DNA from: Methylocystis sp.
GTDB taxonomy: Bacteria; Pseudomonadota; Alphaproteobacteria; Rhizobiales; Beijerinckiaceae
Assembly: GCF_051061285.1 (NCBI RefSeq)
Contig: NZ_JBPFEA010000021.1
Span: 9,863 to 33,862, forward strand
DNA length: 24,000 nt
Direction of reading: 5' to 3'
In this document: positions 1,964 to 14,709 of the stretch, piece by piece
Numbering within the stretch: position 1 is the first letter of the stretch
Layout: each line of letters opens with the position of its first letter
Position numbers and translations under genes: made by a program
Notes under the pieces: generated by a model
Told to the model about the DNA's origin: nothing
The model's input: only the letters and a program-made list of their open reading frames with translations
Database searches by the model: none

Positions 1964-2446
1964 TCAGCCCATTCGATCTGCATGCCTCGCGCGCGTCAGA
2001 TGCATCCAGAGCGCAAATGCGTCGTATGGCGTCACTCGTTCCCTCGCAAGCAGGTCGGGGCCTTCGAACGCGCGCATCGCGCGCCCCTCTCCGAGGACAA
2101 GCTTCTCCATCTGTGCGGCCGCGAGCGGCGTCTCGAAGAAATGGCGCTCGACAGGGCCGCCGCCTAATGCGGTAAAATCGAGCGTGATCGTCGTAAACCA
2201 GACCATGGTCTGGGCGTCGTATCCAAGTTCTTCCCGCAGTTCGCGCCGCAACGCCGCCTCGGCCCCTTCGCCGGGTTCGACGCCGCCGCCGAACAGGCCC
2301 CAATGGCCCGGGAAAAAAATGCCGGGCTTCTCATCCCTAAGCTGCATGAGATAGCGACCGTCGTCGAGGACAAGCAGCGCAACCGCCGCATCGCCCGGCG
2401 TCAGCGGTCCCTCGTTGAGGAAATAGTCTGGGACGCGGTCACTCAC
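1964..2446 (-). CDS. Nudix hydrolase (candidate NDP-sugar pyrophosphatase)
   Basis: Complete Nudix box GGGVEPGEGAEAALRRELREELGY (GX5EX7REUXEEXGU). GTG start at 2444-2446 overlaps the upstream stop by 8 nt (GTGAGTGA). It is the last gene of the minus-strand operon. Confidence 0.85.
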   Translation of the reverse strand: MSDRVPDYFLNEGPLTPGDAAVALLVLDDGRYLMQLRDEKPGIFFPGHWGLFGGGVEPGEGAEAALRRELREELGYDAQTMVWFTTITLDFTALGGGPVERHFFETPLAAAQMEKLVLGEGRAMRAFEGPDLLARERVTPYDAFALWMHLTRARHADRMG

Positions 2447-3359
2447 TGAGAATTCGCCGCGTCATATCCTCGACCGAAAGCCCGTGCGCGTCGAGGATGT
2501 CGTCATGGCTTCCGTAGCAGTGAATGAACTCATCCTTAAGCGTGAACGAAAAGAGCCTTGTTCGCGCGCCGATATCGAAGGCGATTGCTTTGACTTGCAT
2601 TGCGAGACCGCCGGTTGGCGCGCATTCCTCGATAACGACGACAGAGGGAAATTGCGTCAGCACGTCGGCGACTCCGCTGACGTCGAGCGGCTTCAATGTG
2701 TGAACCGAATTGATCGCCACGCTGTGGCCGGCCGCCTCGAGCCGCTCGGCCACGGCCCACGCGCGTTTCATGATCGGACCGTATGTAAGAATGCAAACGT
2801 CCGCGCCCGGGCGAATTTGTCGCAGCTTGCCGAAGGTCCAGGGTTGTGGCGCGTTGCTGGTGAAGTCCGGCTCACCCGCCTTGCCGAGGCGCAGATAGAC
2901 CGGCCCATGCTCCTGCGTGGCGCACCAACGCGTCGCCGCTTCGGTTTCCGCCGGGTCGCAAGGCGCGATAACTGTGAGGTTAGGAATCGCGCAGGCGATC
3001 GCTACATCTTCCTGCGCGTGATGCGTCGCGCCGAGCGTCGAATAGGTGAGGCCGCCGCCGATGCCGACCACGGTGACGCATAGATTTTGGTAGCACAGAT
3101 CGTCTCGCACCATTTCAAATGGGCGGTAGAGCGAGAAGGTCGCAATCGTGTAGGCGAAGGGCCGCAGACCACGCTGCGCCATCCCGGCGGTCATGCCGAT
3201 CATGATCTGCTCGGCGACTCCGGTATTCACGAAGCGCTGCGGAAATTTCGTGCGAAACTTCTCGATGCTGCCGGCAGGAGATATGTCCGCTACGACAAGG
3301 CACAGGCGCTCGTCCTCCCTGCCCAATTCATAGAATGTATCCGCAAATCTATTCCTCAT
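2439..3359 (-). CDS. transketolase, C-terminal (pyrimidine-binding + C-terminal domain) subunit
   Basis: FVNTGVAEQIMIGMTAGMAQRG, HHAQEDVAI and SVHTLKPLD are typical of split-transketolase C subunits. Start reset from 3476 to ATG 3357-3359, which forms an ATGA overlap with the upstream stop at 3356. The 306-aa length fits the family. Confidence 0.9.
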   Translation of the reverse strand: MRNRFADTFYELGREDERLCLVVADISPAGSIEKFRTKFPQRFVNTGVAEQIMIGMTAGMAQRGLRPFAYTIATFSLYRPFEMVRDDLCYQNLCVTVVGIGGGLTYSTLGATHHAQEDVAIACAIPNLTVIAPCDPAETEAATRWCATQEHGPVYLRLGKAGEPDFTSNAPQPWTFGKLRQIRPGADVCILTYGPIMKRAWAVAERLEAAGHSVAINSVHTLKPLDVSGVADVLTQFPSVVVIEECAPTGGLAMQVKAIAFDIGARTRLFSFTLKDEFIHCYGSHDDILDAHGLSVEDMTRRILSE

Positions 3360-4222
3360 GGGGCGTTCTCGATCTCGTTCAACGCCTGCGCATATTCCTC
3401 CGAATTGGGCGAACGGTAATGCCAGATCGGAACGCTCTCCATGAATGAAACGCCTTTGCCCTTCGTCGTGCGACAAACGATCAACTTCGGGCGAGGGGTC
3501 GCGTCATTCGAACAGTCGTTGTCGAGCGCCGCGAAAATCTCCGCGCTGTCATGTCCAGCGACTTCAGCCGTGCTAAATCCAAAAGCGCGCGCTTTGTCGA
3601 GTAGGGGGTAAAAGGCCTTGTGACCCTCGCTTATGCGTTCGAGGCCAGAAAAATCATTGTTGTCCATCAGCGCGACAAGATTGGAAAGACCGAGATTTGC
3701 GGCGGCCATCATCGCCTCCCAGGTCGAGCCCTCCTGAAATTCGCCATCCGATAGGACGCAATAGACCCGCGCGTCGCTCCCCTTCAGCTTCTCAGCGAAC
3801 GCCTGTCCGACCGCGATTCCCAACCCATGTCCCAACGATCCGGTCGAAGCCGCAATTCCCGGCGTGCCGTAATCGGGATGCGCGCCGAGCCGCCCGCCGG
3901 GCTTGCAATAGGCGTCGAGGTCTGCGCGCGACAATATGCCTTGCTCCTCGAGCACGACATATTGGATCATGCAGCCGTGACCTTTGGACATCAGAAAGAT
4001 GTCGCAATACTCACCGTTCGCGTCCCGACGCATCGCGCCATTATACAGCGAGTCGACGATCTCGACGCAGGAAAAAGCCGGCGCTACATGCAGCGCGGAA
4101 ACTTGTCGCGAGATTTCCAGAATGCGCCGGCGGTAGCGGCGGCAGCGTTCCTTTGCCGCAGCGGCGTCGAAATTGTTGCGCCGTCGCTCGTCGCGCTGAC
4201 ATAGCATGAGTCCGTTGGTCAT
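3356..4222 (-). CDS. transketolase, N-terminal (thiamine-diphosphate-binding) subunit
   Basis: Motifs SKGHG and GSLGHGLGIAVG, plus the ThDP/Mg motif SDGEFQEGSTWEA...LVALMDNND. ATG at 4220-4222, with an alternative ATG at 4205-4207. Confidence 0.9.
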   Translation of the reverse strand: MTNGLMLCQRDERRRNNFDAAAAKERCRRYRRRILEISRQVSALHVAPAFSCVEIVDSLYNGAMRRDANGEYCDIFLMSKGHGCMIQYVVLEEQGILSRADLDAYCKPGGRLGAHPDYGTPGIAASTGSLGHGLGIAVGQAFAEKLKGSDARVYCVLSDGEFQEGSTWEAMMAAANLGLSNLVALMDNNDFSGLERISEGHKAFYPLLDKARAFGFSTAEVAGHDSAEIFAALDNDCSNDATPRPKLIVCRTTKGKGVSFMESVPIWHYRSPNSEEYAQALNEIENAP

Positions 4223-4252
4223 TTCACATTCCGCCCAACTCGTTGCGGTCGA

Positions 4253-13533: not shown

Positions 13534-13542
13534 GAGCGACTT

Positions 13543-14094
13543 TCAGCTGTGTTCTTGTGGCATTGATAATATCCAGTCGGCGGCCTCGGAAAGCGAGCCG
13601 ACAATTCTGTTCGGGCGTTCAGGAGGCTGTTCCGCCGTATAGCCGAGATCTATGAACACGGTGCGGCACCCGGCCGCAGCGCCGGCTTCTACGTCGCTCG
13701 CTCGATCGCCTACCATGAAGCTCTCCTTGAGATCGAGCCCGATTTCGCGCGCCGCTTCCAACAACATTCCAGGCCGCGGCTTGCGGCAGGCGCACGGGCT
13801 CACGTTCGTATGGCAGCAGATCTTTATCGCGTCCAGAGGCATTGCGTGGCGAAGTCGGAGGCTCATTTCATCGACGATCTCACGCGCAACTCGGCCCGCC
13901 CCCACATCTGGCTGGTTTGAAACGACGACGGTGAAGAAGCCTGCTTCCTTCAACCTCGTAACGCACCTCGGCGCGTCCGGATAAATGGCGAATTCCGCGA
14001 GAGTCGTCGGTGCGAAACTGCGGCCTTCGCGAAACTGCGGCACCACGAGAACGCCGTCACGATCCAAAAAAACGGCGCGTCGCGGCCCGAACAT
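13543..14094 (-). CDS. gmhB: HAD-superfamily D,D-heptose-1,7-bisphosphate-phosphatase-like enzyme
   Basis: HAD motif I VFLDRDGVL and motif II VVVSNQ. GmhB-type Zn loop plus Lys in CCHTNVSPCACRKPRPGM. Motif IV GDRASDVEAG. AGGAG RBS upstream of ATG 14092-14094. Confidence 0.9.
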   Translation of the reverse strand: MFGPRRAVFLDRDGVLVVPQFREGRSFAPTTLAEFAIYPDAPRCVTRLKEAGFFTVVVSNQPDVGAGRVAREIVDEMSLRLRHAMPLDAIKICCHTNVSPCACRKPRPGMLLEAAREIGLDLKESFMVGDRASDVEAGAAAGCRTVFIDLGYTAEQPPERPNRIVGSLSEAADWILSMPQEHS

Positions 14095-14103
14095 CCTTGG
14101 CTC

Positions 14104-14709
14104 CTACCACTTCGTCCCACGCGACTGAAGAGCTGGATGAGACACGAGGCAATGCCAGACGACTGCCTGAAACGCTTCGGAAAGCGGCGTCACGCGGCCG
14201 GCGTCGACCTGCGGAATCACGACCACCACGTCGCCATGGGCGCTGGCGTGGCCGTCGGCGCGACCCACGATCGCAAAAACGCGGGCGCCACGCTGCTTTG
14301 CAAGATCGATGGCCTTCACAAGATTGACGCTGACATTGCGAGCCGCGTTCCCGCCCCCAACTGAAAAGACGAGGATTGCGTCGCCGCTGGATAGCCGGCT
14401 GACCTCAAGCCATCCTGTGAAGATCGTATCCCATCCCTCATCATTGGCCCGAGCCGTCAGCTCCGAAACATTGTCCGTCGGCGCATAGGCTTCGATCCCG
14501 CACAATTTTCGAAAATCATTCGCCGCGTGACCACAATTTCCCGCGCTGCCCCCGACGCCCAATAAAAACAATCGTCCCTCGCGCTCACGCAATTGACTCA
14601 ACTCTTGAGCGAGCCGCTCGACCACGCGGGCGTCAAGAAGTCCTGCAACCTCTCGTACCTGCTCCATAAAATCGATGACATGCGACAGGGCGGCGCTCCC
14701 GTTTAACAA
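14104..14709 (-). CDS. gmhA: SIS-domain sugar-phosphate (sedoheptulose-7-P type) isomerase
   Basis: Motifs LLGVGGSAGNCGHAANDF, LTARANDEGWDTIF, VFSVGGGN and LSEAFQAVVWHC match the GmhA/LmbN-type SIS pattern. The ORF-track start is TTG 14707-14709. The first in-frame ATG is 14665-14667. Neither has a clear RBS, so the start is uncertain. Confidence 0.85.
   Translation of the reverse strand: MLNGSAALSHVIDFMEQVREVAGLLDARVVERLAQELSQLREREGRLFLLGVGGSAGNCGHAANDFRKLCGIEAYAPTDNVSELTARANDEGWDTIFTGWLEVSRLSSGDAILVFSVGGGNAARNVSVNLVKAIDLAKQRGARVFAIVGRADGHASAHGDVVVVIPQVDAGRVTPLSEAFQAVVWHCLVSHPALQSRGTKW

What the first reader, a model, noticed from the sequence alone, without database searches (positions are those of the whole stretch)
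1964..14709. Self-contained 14-gene operon for a heavily tailored higher-carbon (C7/C8) NDP-sugar, with the enzyme logic of the lincosamide octose pathway in a Gram-negative-type chromosome
Seen in sequence: 14 co-directional genes have stop/start overlaps (ATGA at 12760, 11750, 8137 and 3356; TAATG at 6824; 8 nt at 2439-2446). They encode a SIS isomerase, a GmhB-type phosphatase, a transaldolase, four SDR-fold enzymes, a kinase + nucleotidyltransferase fusion, a Gfo/Idh/MocA oxidoreductase, a UGDH-family protein, a methyltransferase, split transketolase subunits and a Nudix hydrolase.

Established knowledge: GmhA, HldE and GmhB convert sedoheptulose-7-P to ADP-heptose. In lincomycin biosynthesis, transaldolase LmbR condenses a C3 unit from fructose-6-P or sedoheptulose-7-P with ribose-5-P to give octulose-8-P. 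LmbN (SIS isomerase), LmbP (kinase), LmbK (GmhB-like phosphatase) and LmbO (nucleotidyltransferase) then convert it to an NDP-octose. That product is tailored by LmbM (SDR epimerase), LmbL/LmbZ (6,8-dehydration) and an aminotransferase. As I recall, LmbL is UGDH-like and LmbZ is Gfo/Idh/MocA-like.

Inference: every one of those enzyme classes except the aminotransferase is present here, plus transketolase, extra SDRs and methyltransferase(s). The operon therefore plausibly makes a deoxy/epimerised, O-methylated NDP-heptose or NDP-octose for a surface glycan, supplying its own precursors from the pentose-phosphate pool.

Speculation: related alphaproteobacteria make exotic higher-carbon O-antigen sugars, such as the bicyclic C10 bradyrhizose, whose biosynthesis is to my knowledge unresolved. 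A TK/Tal-equipped NDP-sugar operon is the kind of locus that could perform such chain extension.
Basis: partly seen in the sequence, partly recalled or inferred. Interest (0 to 1): 0.8.

Follow-up and report, generated by a model that had tools for sequence, protein, structure and literature searches.

The report
Conserved operon for a higher-carbon sugar
This Methylocystis operon belongs to a widespread, uncharacterised gene cluster that most likely builds and decorates a nucleotide-activated 8-carbon (possibly 7-carbon) sugar for a surface polysaccharide, and it is a distant cousin of the Bradyrhizobium operon needed for the bradyrhizose O-antigen.

Summary
Fourteen tightly packed minus-strand genes (1964-14709) encode exactly the enzyme classes listed, and all six start/stop overlaps are real. 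The window comes from Methylocystis (97% nt identity to M. silviterrae and M. suflitae).

New findings:
- Eleven genes (SIS, HAD phosphatase, transaldolase, SDR1, SDR2, nucleotidyltransferase-kinase fusion, Gfo, UGDH-like, SDR3, methyltransferase, SDR4) form a collinear core. It occurs in at least 583 species genomes across Proteobacteria, Nitrospirota and Acidobacteriota.
- The transaldolase is core (61/62 loci).
- The split transketolase is an exchangeable module. It is mutually exclusive with a pyruvate-dehydrogenase E1 alpha/beta pair at the same position (30 vs 17 loci, never both). It is therefore a tailoring C2-transfer enzyme, not precursor supply.
- The UGDH-like protein has Asn in place of the catalytic Cys (73/73 homologues). 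SDR4 has TSE instead of the dehydratase TDE motif.
- The Bradyrhizobium 11-gene 'gdh' operon, needed for the bradyrhizose O-antigen, shares seven gene families at 30-46% identity. It is a cousin, not an orthologue.

Octose versus heptose is unresolved, and Lmb sequences could not be obtained. I found no published characterisation. Verdict: an uncharacterised variant of a known kind.

The parts
14104..14709 (-). SIS-domain sugar-phosphate isomerase, distantly GmhA/LmbN-like. First gene of the operon.
   Evidence: Pfam SIS_2 at 31 bits. TIGR00441 gmhA scores 48 bits against a cut-off of 209. All PDB hits are phosphoheptose isomerases, at 40 bits or less. Present in 58/62 loci.
13543..14094 (-). 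HAD-IIIA phosphatase, GmhB/LmbK-like.
   Evidence: TIGR01656 scores 108 bits, above its cut-off. The GmhB equivalog NF006506 scores 103 bits against a cut-off of 178. The DxDG motif FLDRDGVL is conserved. Present in 58/62 loci.
12760..13533 (-). Short-type transaldolase (TIGR02134 family). Proposed builder of the ketose-phosphate precursor.
   Evidence: TIGR02134 scores 339.8 bits, above the cut-off of 281.95. The Schiff-base Lys motif NVKIP is conserved. Present in 61/62 loci.
11750..12763 (-). SDR1, an extended SDR. Proposed NDP-sugar C4 dehydrogenase.
   Evidence: Pfam Epimerase. The best PDB hit is 6vo6 at 130 bits, well ahead of the next hit at 89 bits. YxxxK and SSSSVYG are conserved. 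Present in 61/62 loci. The Bradyrhizobium operon has a homologue at 42-45% identity.
10743..11753 (-). SDR2, a GalE/WbpP-type extended SDR. Proposed epimerase.
   Evidence: Pfam Epimerase at 180 bits. The best PDB hits are UDP-hexose 4-epimerases. ASSSCYG and YALSK are conserved. Present in 62/62 loci.
9092..10645 (-). Fusion of an N-terminal cytidylyltransferase-like nucleotidyltransferase and a C-terminal PfkB sugar kinase. The domain order is the reverse of HldE.
   Evidence: CTP_transf_like at residues 38-145 and PfkB at 203-499. rfaE domain I and II models score 120 and 90 bits, both below cut-off. HxGH and GAGD motifs are conserved. More than 7000 homologues were found, at 64-76% identity across phyla.
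8137..9087 (-). Divergent Gfo/Idh/MocA oxidoreductase, translationally coupled to the next gene.
   Evidence: Three GFO Pfam domains. PDB relatives reach only E = 1e-11 or weaker. EKPL and YNHRF are invariant. Present in 60/60 loci. ATGA overlap at 8137-8140.
6824..8140 (-). UGDH-family protein lacking the catalytic cysteine (GGNLERD instead of GGSCFPKD).
   Evidence: All three UGDH domains are present, and TIGR03026 scores 213 bits. The alignment to 4a7p and 3vtf puts Asn at the Cys position. This is invariant in 73/73 homologues. Of 128 nearest 50%-cluster representatives with a recognisable motif, 127 have no Cys there.
5943..6824 (-). SDR3, an RmlD/GDP-fucose-synthase-like SDR with an atypical active site (HGxMH replaces YxxxK).
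   Evidence: Pfam Epimerase and RmlD_sub_bind. The alignment to GalE shows Tyr to His and Lys to His, conserved among homologues. Present in 53/60 loci.
5282..5938 (-). Class-I SAM methyltransferase. O- or C-methylation of the sugar is inferred.
   Evidence: Methyltransf_11/25. The nearest named families include the mycofactocin oligosaccharide methyltransferase MftM, below cut-off. Present in 58/60 loci. The Bradyrhizobium operon has a 46%-identical homologue.
4253..5248 (-). SDR4, RmlB-like but with TSE instead of the dehydratase TDE motif. Homologue of Bradyrhizobium 'gdh'.
   Evidence: TIGR01181 scores 167 bits against a cut-off of 365. The best PDB hits are dTDP-glucose 4,6-dehydratases, and the alignment shows TDE replaced by TSE. 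TSE is invariant in 57/57 homologues. Identity to gdh is 34-39%.
3356..4222 (-). Split transketolase, N-terminal (ThDP diphosphate-binding) subunit. Accessory module.
   Evidence: Transketolase_N. NF004559 scores 209 bits over the N-terminal half. GSLGHG, SKGHG and GDG..N motifs are conserved. It is mutually exclusive with the E1 alpha/beta pair.
2439..3359 (-). Split transketolase, pyrimidine-binding plus C-terminal subunit.
   Evidence: Transket_pyr and Transketolase_C. The GVAEQ motif with the cofactor-activating Glu is conserved. ATGA overlap with the N-terminal subunit gene.
1964..2446 (-). Nudix hydrolase, accessory. Control of the NDP-sugar pool is inferred.
   Evidence: NUDIX domain with the Nudix box. 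Present in 22 loci at variable positions. Similarity to the sister Methylocystis genomes ends right after this gene.
14710..15043 (.). 334-nt divergent intergenic region. Presumed operon promoter (inferred only).
   Evidence: This is the only sizeable non-coding stretch upstream of the first gene. The consensus scan found no promoter or terminator excess over shuffles anywhere in 1-15200.
202..894 (-). Methyltransferase MTa, a possible accessory gene lying in a strain-variable segment.
   Evidence: Methyltransf_11/25. Homologues at 44-60% identity sit next to the cluster in 12 other loci, and at 52% next to the Bradyrhizobium-type cluster.
1077..1919 (+). Methyltransferase MTb, convergent with the operon, in the strain-variable segment.
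   Evidence: Methyltransf_31/25. Homologues lie near the cluster in L021 and L042 at 52% and 59% identity, and at 32% in L009.
15044..16168 (+). DAO-family FAD oxidoreductase, L-2-hydroxyglutarate-oxidase-like, divergent from the operon. Possible accessory gene (speculative).
   Evidence: PF01266 at 203 bits. The best NCBIfam model is NF008726 L-2-hydroxyglutarate oxidase at 188.5 bits, against a cut-off of 299 and a next-best family at 89 bits. A 29-33%-identical ORF lies just upstream of SIS in four Nitrospira loci.

Best explanation
The operon makes and tailors a nucleotide-activated higher-carbon sugar for a surface polysaccharide. It is one member of a widespread, horizontally mobile cluster with an 11-gene core.

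Proposed steps (all inferred from family membership, none assayed):
1. The transaldolase transfers a C3 dihydroxyacetone unit to an aldose phosphate. With ribose-5-P this gives octulose-8-P, as LmbR does. Erythrose-4-P giving sedoheptulose-7-P is the alternative.
2. The SIS isomerase converts the ketose phosphate to the aldose phosphate.
3. The PfkB domain of the fusion phosphorylates C1.
4. The HAD phosphatase removes the terminal phosphate.
5. The N-terminal nucleotidyltransferase domain makes the NDP-sugar (ADP or CDP type).
6. SDR1, which resembles the C. jejuni GDP-heptose C4 dehydrogenase, creates a 4-keto intermediate. SDR2 and SDR3 epimerise or reduce.
7. The coupled Gfo and Cys-less UGDH-like pair performs a two-electron oxidation or dehydration on the side chain, analogous to LmbZ/LmbL.
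8. The methyltransferase methylates the sugar. SDR4 (TSE motif) does a further keto-chemistry step.
9. In this genome the split transketolase adds a two-carbon glycolaldehyde unit to a keto group of the NDP-sugar, giving a branched or extended sugar. Other genomes use a pyruvate-dependent E1 alpha/beta pair here, or nothing.
10. The Nudix hydrolase trims the NDP-sugar pool.

The glycosyltransferases lie elsewhere in this genome.
For: - All enzyme classes are verified and their catalytic motifs conserved.
- The SIS, fusion and HAD proteins are only distant relatives of GmhA/HldE/GmhB. Their scores are 48, 146 and 103 bits against cut-offs of 209, 521 and 178. They are therefore not the housekeeping heptose pathway.
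- The transaldolase passes its equivalog cut-off and is present in 61/62 loci.
- The core order is collinear in 32/51 loci spanning Alpha-, Beta- and Gammaproteobacteria, Nitrospirota and Acidobacteriota.
- SDR1's best solved relative is 6vo6 at 130 bits. I recall this entry as Cj1427, the GDP-heptose C4 dehydrogenase described in PMC10680097.
- Cys is replaced by Asn in the UGDH-like protein, invariantly.
- Transketolase and E1 alpha/beta are mutually exclusive at the same position: 30 TK only, 17 E1 only, 12 neither, 0 both.
- E1-type AviB1/AviB2 and the ThDP enzyme YerE are the literature precedents for installing C2 branches on 4-keto sugars (PMC4753412; PMC9306805).
- The LmbR/LmbN route from ribose-5-P plus fructose-6-P or sedoheptulose-7-P to a GDP-activated C8 sugar is documented (PMC7014725; PMC4351081).
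- GT2, GT4, ABC-2 permease, NusG-like and DegT genes recur next to the cluster in other genomes.
Against: - No chemistry was measured, and C8 versus C7 is undecided.
- TIGR02134 is a family of bona fide housekeeping transaldolases, so the enzyme could simply make sedoheptulose-7-P.
- The nearest named relatives of SIS, kinase, phosphatase and SDR1 are all heptose enzymes.
- No glycosyltransferase, flippase or polymerase is present in the 24-kb window, so the glycan destination rests on other genomes.
- To my knowledge no transketolase has been shown to act on a nucleotide sugar.
- Homology of the Gfo and UGDH-like proteins to LmbZ and LmbL could not be tested.
- The family assignment of LmbL and LmbZ comes from memory. 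The literature I could read says only 'C8 dehydrogenase' and 'C8 oxidoreductase'.
- Twelve loci have no ThDP module, so the C2 step is not part of the core product.
Confidence: 0.5

Rival explanations
1. It is a modified NDP-heptose pathway starting from sedoheptulose-7-P, like the 6-deoxy- or O-methyl-heptoses of Campylobacter, Yersinia and Burkholderia. The transaldolase (and perhaps the transketolase) only boosts sedoheptulose-7-P supply from the pentose-phosphate pool.
For: - The nearest named families for SIS, fusion and HAD are GmhA, HldE and GmhB.
- The PDB relatives are phosphoheptose isomerases and heptose-7-P kinase.
- SDR1 is closest to 6vo6, which I recall as a GDP-heptose C4 dehydrogenase.
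- The transaldolase falls within a housekeeping-type equivalog family.
Against: - Sedoheptulose-7-P is a central metabolite, so a supply gene should be dispensable. Yet the transaldolase is kept in 61/62 loci across phyla.
- The related Bradyrhizobium cluster has SIS and the fusion but no transaldolase.
- The transketolase cannot be a supply enzyme, because a pyruvate-type E1 pair replaces it positionally.
- All heptose-family scores are far below the equivalog cut-offs.
Confidence: 0.27
2. The product is not a glycan building block. It is a free or small-molecule sugar derivative, such as a metabolite, osmolyte or cofactor precursor, released from the NDP-sugar by the Nudix hydrolase.
For: - No glycosyltransferase or exporter lies within the 24-kb window.
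- The operon ends with a Nudix hydrolase.
- Protein conservation is very high across phyla, 64-76% for the fusion. That is unusual for serotype-variable glycan genes.
Against: - In other genomes the cluster is flanked by GT2, GT4, a Wzm-like ABC-2 permease, a NusG-like antiterminator, DegT and RmlD-like genes.
- Nudix is present in only 22 of about 80 loci, at variable positions.
- The cousin cluster in Bradyrhizobium is required for the O-antigen (PMC4743980).
Confidence: 0.08
3. The operon is the orthologue of the Bradyrhizobium bradyrhizose operon and makes the bicyclic C10 sugar bradyrhizose.
For: It shares SIS, the reversed nucleotidyltransferase-kinase fusion, SDR1, SDR4/gdh, the split transketolase and a methyltransferase with the 11-gene gdh operon. 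Disrupting that operon abolishes the bradyrhizose O-antigen (PMC4743980).
Against: - Identity is only 30-46%.
- The Bradyrhizobium operon lacks TAL, HAD, SDR2, Gfo, UGDH-like and SDR3. It has an NTP_transferase, a Zn-ADH, an APH-type kinase and a protein of unknown function instead.
- Active-site motifs differ: TPE and YxxxR in gdh against TSE and YxxxK here.
- No named Bradyrhizobium protein appeared among the 120 closest fusion homologues of a Xanthobacteraceae query.
Confidence: 0.03

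Closest known systems
Lincosamide GDP-octose pathway of Streptomyces lincolnensis and S. caelestis (LmbR, LmbN, LmbP, LmbK, LmbO, then LmbM, LmbL, LmbZ/CcbZ, LmbS)
   Same: The same sequence of enzyme classes: transaldolase, SIS isomerase, anomeric kinase, HAD phosphatase, nucleotidyltransferase, then an SDR epimerase plus a dehydrogenase/oxidoreductase pair. 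Both are compact operons with 4-bp overlaps (PMC7014725; PMC4351081).
   Different: - It occurs in Gram-negative bacteria and Nitrospira, not in antibiotic producers.
- Kinase and nucleotidyltransferase are fused, and the transferase is of the cytidylyltransferase-like (HldE-type) fold.
- This window has no aminotransferase. DegT recurs in 11 of the 80 loci.
- It has three more SDRs, a methyltransferase and a ThDP module.
- It has no carrier-protein domains or thiol-conjugation genes.
- Sequence-level homology to Lmb proteins was not testable here.
ADP-L-glycero-D-manno-heptose pathway (GmhA, HldE, GmhB, HldD)
   Same: The same four chemical steps from ketose phosphate to NDP-aldose, and the same protein folds.
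   Different: - All three proteins score far below the equivalog cut-offs.
- The fusion has the reverse domain order.
- A transaldolase is part of the unit.
- In Bradyrhizobium the canonical rfaD/rfaE/rfaF genes lie near rfaL, about 40 kb from the cousin cluster (PMC4743980).
Bradyrhizobium 11-gene 'gdh' operon (BRAO285v1_100023 region), required for the bradyrhizose O-antigen
   Same: It shares seven gene families: the reversed nucleotidyltransferase-kinase fusion, SDR1, SIS, SDR4 (= gdh), both transketolase subunits and the methyltransferase. An MTa-like methyltransferase also lies nearby in some contigs.
   Different: - Identity is 30-46%.
- It lacks TAL, HAD, SDR2, Gfo, UGDH-like and SDR3.
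- It adds an NTP_transferase, a Zn-ADH, an APH-like kinase and a 205-aa unknown.
- gdh orthologues (88-98% identity) also occur in records named B. diazoefficiens and B. betae. The operon may therefore not be specific for bradyrhizose.
Campylobacter jejuni GDP-heptose modification enzymes (Cj1427 C4-dehydrogenase, epimerases, C4-reductases)
   Same: SDR1's closest solved structure is 6vo6, which I recall as Cj1427. The logic is the same: oxidise C4, then epimerise and reduce with further SDRs (PMC10680097).
   Different: The relationship is distant (130 bits). The C. jejuni pathway uses GDP-heptose made by a GHMP kinase and a GDP-transferase. It has no transaldolase, no UGDH-like/Gfo pair and no ThDP enzyme.
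ThDP-dependent formation of C-branched sugars (YerE/ErwE flavoenzymes; AviB1/AviB2 E1-type pair)
   Same: A ThDP enzyme encoded inside a nucleotide-sugar cluster, next to 4-keto-forming SDRs. The E1 alpha/beta variant of this cluster matches the AviB1/B2 type (PMC4753412; PMC9306805).
   Different: Here the module is a split transketolase. Its donor would be a ketose or hydroxypyruvate, giving a glycolyl branch rather than an acetyl branch. As far as I know, no transketolase has been shown to use a nucleotide-sugar acceptor.
UDP-glucose/GDP-mannose dehydrogenase family
   Same: The three-domain architecture. TIGR03026 is passed at 213 bits against a cut-off of 190.
   Different: The catalytic Cys nucleophile is replaced by Asn, and the neighbouring Lys by Arg (GGNLERD). 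This holds throughout a large clade, so four-electron oxidation to a uronic acid is unlikely.

Membership tests
Housekeeping ADP-heptose pathway (GmhA/HldE/GmhB) | Proteins reach the curated equivalog scores for GmhA, HldE and GmhB. | tested here: not met
   gmhA TIGR00441 scores 48.3 against 209.45. HldE NF008454 scores 145.6 against 521. GmhB NF006506 scores 102.8 against 178.
Housekeeping ADP-heptose pathway (GmhA/HldE/GmhB) | HldE domain order: kinase N-terminal, adenylyltransferase C-terminal. | tested here: not met
   CTP_transf_like lies at residues 38-145 and PfkB at 203-499. The order is the same in all homologues listed.
Housekeeping ADP-heptose pathway (GmhA/HldE/GmhB) | Substrate is sedoheptulose-7-P and product is ADP-heptose. 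| not testable with these tools
   This needs enzyme assays or NDP-sugar profiling.
Lincosamide-type NDP-octose pathway | A transaldolase is encoded as an integral part of the sugar-nucleotide cluster. | tested here: met
   TIGR02134 scores 339.8, above 281.95. It is present in 61/62 loci between the HAD and SDR1 genes.
Lincosamide-type NDP-octose pathway | SIS isomerase, anomeric kinase, HAD phosphatase and nucleotidyltransferase are all present. | tested here: met
   This was tested at the level of enzyme class only. The nucleotidyltransferase fold and the fusion differ from what I recall of LmbO and LmbP.
Lincosamide-type NDP-octose pathway | Sequence orthology (reciprocal best hits) to LmbR, LmbN, LmbL and LmbZ. 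| not testable with these tools
   No Lmb sequences were reachable: the key papers are not held, and ten Cys-less UGDH-like representatives looked up carried no Lmb names.
Lincosamide-type NDP-octose pathway | A C8 product (octulose-8-P, then NDP-octose). | not testable with these tools
   This needs LC-MS of enzyme products.
Lincosamide-type NDP-octose pathway | An aminotransferase (LmbS type) giving a 6-amino sugar. | tested here: not met
   No aminotransferase domain was found in any of the 25 window ORFs scanned. DegT occurs beside the cluster in 11 other loci.
UDP-glucose/GDP-mannose 6-dehydrogenases | The catalytic cysteine in the GGxCxxKD motif. | tested here: not met
   Asn aligns with the Cys of 4a7p and 3vtf. 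GGNLERD occurs in 73/73 homologues.
dTDP-glucose 4,6-dehydratase (RmlB) | The TDE and YxxxK catalytic motifs, and the TIGR01181 equivalog score. | tested here: not met
   TSE replaces TDE in 57/57 homologues, while YxxxK is kept. TIGR01181 scores 167.3 against 365.1.
Bradyrhizobium gdh (putative bradyrhizose) operon | The same gene set, at orthologue-level identity. | tested here: not met
   Seven shared families at 30-46% identity, six window genes without a counterpart, and four Bradyrhizobium genes without a counterpart.
Transketolase (ThDP-dependent, split form) | The ThDP-binding GDG..N motif, the conserved His motifs and the cofactor-activating Glu in the pyrimidine-binding subunit. | tested here: met
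   SDGEFQEG...DNND, GSLGHG, SKGHG and GVAEQ are conserved in homologues. The Pfam domains are complete across the two subunits.
Transketolase (ThDP-dependent, split form) | A role in the pentose-phosphate pathway (sugar-phosphate donor and acceptor). | tested here: inconclusive
   Positional replacement by an E1 alpha/beta pair, with no co-occurrence in 59 loci, argues against it. Substrates were not assayed.

The most novel reading that the evidence does not exclude
This cluster and the Bradyrhizobium gdh operon belong to one unrecognised superfamily of pathways for C8-C10 branched or carbocyclic sugars. In these pathways a transaldolase-built NDP-octose (or an NDP-heptose) is oxidised to a keto-sugar. 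A split transketolase then extends it by two carbons. This would be the first transketolase acting on a nucleotide sugar, interchangeable with pyruvate-dependent E1 enzymes. A Cys-less UGDH-like/Gfo pair remodels the side chain. In Bradyrhizobium the same logic (heptose C7, plus a C2 glycolyl branch at C4, plus a C-methyl group, with aldol ring closure) would account for the ten carbons and the inositol-like ring of bradyrhizose.
Probability: 0.3. Interest if true: 0.8.

Novelty: new variant of a known kind. Interest (0 to 1): 0.62.

Why it matters
Dedicated synthesis of an NDP-activated octose by a transaldolase has so far been shown only in lincosamide antibiotic producers. If this cluster makes an NDP-octose, such sugars would be common surface-glycan components. 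The cluster occurs in at least 583 species, including methanotrophs, nitrite oxidisers (Nitrospira), Burkholderiales and Acidobacteria.

The swap between transketolase and E1 gives a concrete, testable hypothesis for a new transketolase activity on nucleotide sugars.

The Cys-less UGDH-like clade is a large enzyme family with no assigned chemistry.

The link to the Bradyrhizobium gdh operon names candidate genes for the unresolved biosynthesis of bradyrhizose. It also supplies a comparative framework of shared and unshared genes for dissecting that pathway.

Tried and rejected
1. Lmb sequences. The two Liu-lab papers I tried to open (by DOI and by PMC id) are not held. PDB holds only the CcbZ carrier-protein domain, as cited in PMC12945683. 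The representative search with the UGDH-like protein gave 150 relatives, and ten high-GC ones were looked up. None carried an Lmb name. Reciprocal best hits were therefore abandoned.

2. Bradyrhizobium orthologues of the fusion protein. I queried with a Xanthobacteraceae homologue. No named Bradyrhizobium protein appeared in the top 120, which reach down to 76% identity.

3. ORS285 gdh primers against the 80 fetched loci gave no match. A metagenome scan with the wobble-degenerate forward primer then worked and led to L090.

4. Promoter and terminator consensus scan of 1-15200 gave counts equal to shuffled controls, so it is uninformative.

5. I first recalled erwiniose as a 6,8-dideoxy-octose, which would have matched the cluster neatly. 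PMC9306805 shows it is a 3,6-dideoxyhexose with a C4 acyl branch made by a YerE-type enzyme. I dropped the idea.

6. P0174 looked like an SDR2-fusion 'Rosetta stone'. Its SDR part aligns only over residues 5-233, so it is probably a frameshift or gene-calling artefact. It is not used as evidence.

7. Literature searches for transaldolase/GmhA/HldE/octose, octulose-8-P/NDP-octose, and transketolase/O-antigen/heptose found no description of this cluster.

Full report
**Observation**

The window carries 14 consecutive minus-strand ORFs between 1964 and 14709. I read every junction from the sequence. ATGA overlaps lie at 12760-12763, 11750-11753, 8137-8140 and 3356-3359. There is a TAATG at 6822-6826 and an 8-nt overlap at 2439-2446. 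The other gaps are 4-33 nt, plus one of 97 nt before the fusion gene. Coding sequence fills 12,585 of 12,746 nt.

Three small corrections apply:
- The bifunctional protein has its nucleotidyltransferase domain first and its PfkB kinase second, the reverse of HldE.
- Its start is probably the ATG at 10645.
- Two further methyltransferase genes flank the 3' end, at 202-894 (minus) and 1077-1919 (plus).

A consensus scan found no more promoter- or terminator-like sites than in shuffled sequence. The single-transcript reading therefore rests on gene packing and on conserved synteny.

**Source and distribution**

The transaldolase is encoded identically on only one public contig, which matches the window at 100% over 12.4 kb. 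The window is about 97% identical at the nucleotide level to Methylocystis silviterrae and M. suflitae over 1981-16248.

The fusion protein has more than 7000 homologues in the protein collection. I mapped all 14 proteins onto the best 80 loci. An 11-gene core emerged: SIS, HAD, TAL, SDR1, SDR2, fusion, Gfo, UGDH-like, SDR3, methyltransferase, SDR4.

| Core gene | Loci with the gene / loci with enough sequence |
|---|---|
| TAL | 61/62 |
| SIS | 58/62 |
| HAD | 58/62 |
| SDR1 | 61/62 |
| SDR2 | 62/62 |
| Gfo | 60/60 |
| UGDH-like | 59/60 |
| SDR3 | 53/60 |
| Methyltransferase | 58/60 |
| SDR4 | 50/60 |

In 32 of 51 fully covered loci all eleven genes are collinear on one strand. Median identities to the window proteins are 54-76%. 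The hosts are Alpha-, Beta- and Gammaproteobacteria, Nitrospirota and Acidobacteriota. Only two Methylocystis species appear among the 80 best loci, which suggests patchy inheritance. The transketolase pair (25-27 loci) and Nudix (22 loci, variable position) are accessory.

**Context**

In this window the flanks are unrelated to glycans. They hold a DAO-family oxidoreductase, an SbmA/BacA-like transporter, a VIT1 protein, an L,D-transpeptidase and an esterase. In other genomes the recurrent neighbours are typical of surface-polysaccharide loci: GT2, GT4, an ABC-2 (Wzm-like) permease, a NusG-like factor, DegT aminotransferase, RmlD-like and TviC-like SDRs, and asparagine synthase.

**What the individual proteins say**

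- **SIS, fusion and HAD.** Their nearest named families are GmhA, HldE and GmhB, but the scores lie far below the curated cut-offs (48 vs 209, 146 vs 521, 103 vs 178). Similarity to solved heptose enzymes is weak. This is therefore a dedicated pathway, not the housekeeping ADP-heptose route.
- **Transaldolase.** It passes the TIGR02134 cut-off (339.8 vs 282) and keeps its Schiff-base lysine motif.
- **SDR1.** Its best solved relative by a clear margin is 6vo6 (130 bits). I recall this entry as C. jejuni Cj1427, the GDP-heptose C4 dehydrogenase that recycles bound NADH with 2-oxoglutarate (function from PMC10680097).
- **SDR2.** It is GalE/WbpP-like.
- **UGDH-family protein.** It has all three domains, but Asn sits where the catalytic Cys should be (GGNLERD vs GGSCFPKD). 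This holds in 73/73 cluster homologues. It also holds in 127 of 128 nearest 50%-identity cluster representatives with a recognisable motif, which carry N, H, Q or V there. Four-electron oxidation to a uronic acid is therefore unlikely.
- **Gfo protein.** It is very divergent from anything solved but is invariant in its EKPL and YNHRF motifs. It is translationally coupled to the UGDH-like gene.
- **SDR4.** It resembles RmlB but has TSE instead of TDE in 57/57 homologues.
- **SDR3.** It has HGxMH where YxxxK should be.
- **Transketolase subunits.** They retain the ThDP-binding and cofactor-activating motifs.

**The ThDP module is interchangeable**

Of 59 loci with enough downstream sequence, 30 carry the split transketolase, 17 carry an E1_dh alpha plus Transket_pyr/Transketolase_C beta pair, and 12 carry neither. 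None carries both. The two modules occupy the same position, after SDR4 or Nudix.

A pyruvate-type E1 cannot supply pentose-phosphate intermediates. E1-type (AviB1/AviB2) and other ThDP enzymes (YerE, ErwE) are the literature precedents for installing C2 or longer branches on 4-keto nucleotide sugars (PMC4753412; PMC9306805). I therefore read the transketolase as a tailoring enzyme that adds a glycolaldehyde unit to a keto-sugar. It does not affect the transaldolase.

**Heptose or octose**

The literature confirms the LmbR/LmbN precedent. Ribose-5-P plus a C3 unit from fructose-6-P or sedoheptulose-7-P gives a C8 sugar that is GDP-activated. LmbK, LmbP, LmbO, LmbM, LmbL, LmbZ and LmbS are the phosphatase, kinase, guanylyltransferase, epimerase, dehydrogenase, oxidoreductase and aminotransferase (PMC7014725; PMC4351081; PMC12945683). 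Eight of these nine classes are in the window.

The transaldolase is retained almost universally, although sedoheptulose-7-P is an ordinary central metabolite. The heptose-like Bradyrhizobium cousin lacks a transaldolase. Both facts favour a non-standard ketose phosphate, most simply octulose-8-P. The alternative remains open, because TIGR02134 enzymes are genuine transaldolases and every nearest named relative is a heptose enzyme. I put the octose reading at about 0.5 and the heptose reading at about 0.27. Sequence comparison with Lmb proteins was not possible.

**The bradyrhizose lead**

Busset et al. [quoted passage not shown] The text does not list the genes but does give the primers.

A metagenome scan with the wobble-degenerate forward primer returned eight contigs. 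In five of them the reverse primer also matches: four with 1-2 mismatches (L086-L089) and one with 5 (L085), each about 360 bp away. The gene on these contigs is 88-98% identical to proteins named Bradyrhizobium in public records. In assembly GCA_018130895.1 the primers match at wobble positions only, giving a 381-bp amplicon.

That gene sits in exactly eleven co-directional genes: a reversed nucleotidyltransferase-kinase fusion, an NTP_transferase, an SDR1-like gene, SIS, gdh (SDR4-like), transketolase N, transketolase C, a Zn-ADH, a 205-aa unknown, an APH-like kinase and a methyltransferase. GT2 and C-methyltransferase-like genes follow.

Identities to the window proteins are 30-46%. TAL, HAD, SDR2, Gfo, UGDH-like and SDR3 have no counterpart there. 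The two clusters are therefore cousins that share a toolkit, not orthologues.

One caution applies. gdh orthologues also occur in records named B. diazoefficiens and B. betae. The authors themselves could not exclude polar effects. The operon's specificity for bradyrhizose is thus an inference.

The following is my own speculation: a heptose (C7), plus a transketolase-derived C2 branch at C4, plus one SAM-derived methyl group gives ten carbons. An aldol closure between C7 and the branch would give a six-membered polyhydroxylated ring. This agrees with the statement that O4, O5 and O9 can each close a hemiacetal with C1 (PMC9912281).

**Novelty**

NCBI and JGI names for these proteins are generic ('PfkB family carbohydrate kinase', 'bifunctional ADP-heptose synthase'). 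No NCBIfam model is specific for any of the tailoring enzymes. Five literature searches found no description of this cluster. I rate it a new variant of a known kind, namely NDP-higher-sugar biosynthesis.

It has three features worth experimental follow-up:
- the transaldolase as a core gene;
- the exchange between transketolase and E1;
- the large Cys-less UGDH-like clade.

**Limits**

Nothing here is biochemical. The product, its carbon number, the nucleotide carrier, the order of the tailoring steps and the acceptor glycan are all inferred.

Noticed in passing
window 15044-16168 (+); also L052, L058, L066, L067 just upstream of SIS: The gene divergent from the operon is a DAO-family FAD oxidoreductase. 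Its best NCBIfam model is L-2-hydroxyglutarate oxidase (188.5 bits, cut-off 299, next family 89 bits). Cj1427-type C4 dehydrogenases, which SDR1 resembles, turn 2-oxoglutarate into L-2-hydroxyglutarate. This neighbour could therefore recycle that co-substrate. A 29-33%-identical ORF sits upstream of SIS in four Nitrospira loci.
   Followed up: partly
window 1-1980: Nucleotide similarity to M. silviterrae and M. suflitae (about 97%) stops at 1981, right after the Nudix gene. The segment with the two methyltransferase genes has lower GC (0.52-0.54 against about 0.60). In L003 (M. suflitae) that position holds a 387-aa methyltransferase on the operon strand; it was not examined in L002. This is a strain-variable tail of the cluster.
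   Followed up: partly
window 5943-6824 (-): SDR3 lacks the canonical SDR YxxxK catalytic pair. His-Gly-x-Met-His aligns in its place and is conserved in most homologues. A few homologues have Tyr at the first position.
   Followed up: partly
proteins P0346-P0495 (relatives of window 6824-8140): The Cys-less UGDH-like proteins form a large, diverse clade. Of the 128 nearest 50%-identity representatives with a recognisable motif, 109 have Asn, 16 have His and only 1 has Cys at the nucleophile position. Members carry names from Acidimicrobiales, Gemmatimonas and Alphaproteobacteria.
   Followed up: partly
L090 6096-16210 (Bradyrhizobium, GCA_018130895.1): The 11-gene gdh operon contains a 205-aa protein with no Pfam hit and an APH-type kinase. 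It also has a second, separate NTP_transferase next to the nucleotidyltransferase-kinase fusion. gdh itself has TPE and YxxxR instead of TDE and YxxxK.
   Followed up: partly
P0174 (ENA contig, 854 aa): This is an apparent fusion of SDR2 with the nucleotidyltransferase-kinase protein. The SDR part aligns only to residue 233, so it is probably a frameshift or gene-calling artefact rather than a real fusion.
   Followed up: yes
L027, L048, L069, L070: Some metagenome-assembled genomes carrying the cluster are labelled Enterobacteriaceae or Bordetella parapertussis. Those labels look doubtful for environmental bins and were not checked.
   Followed up: no
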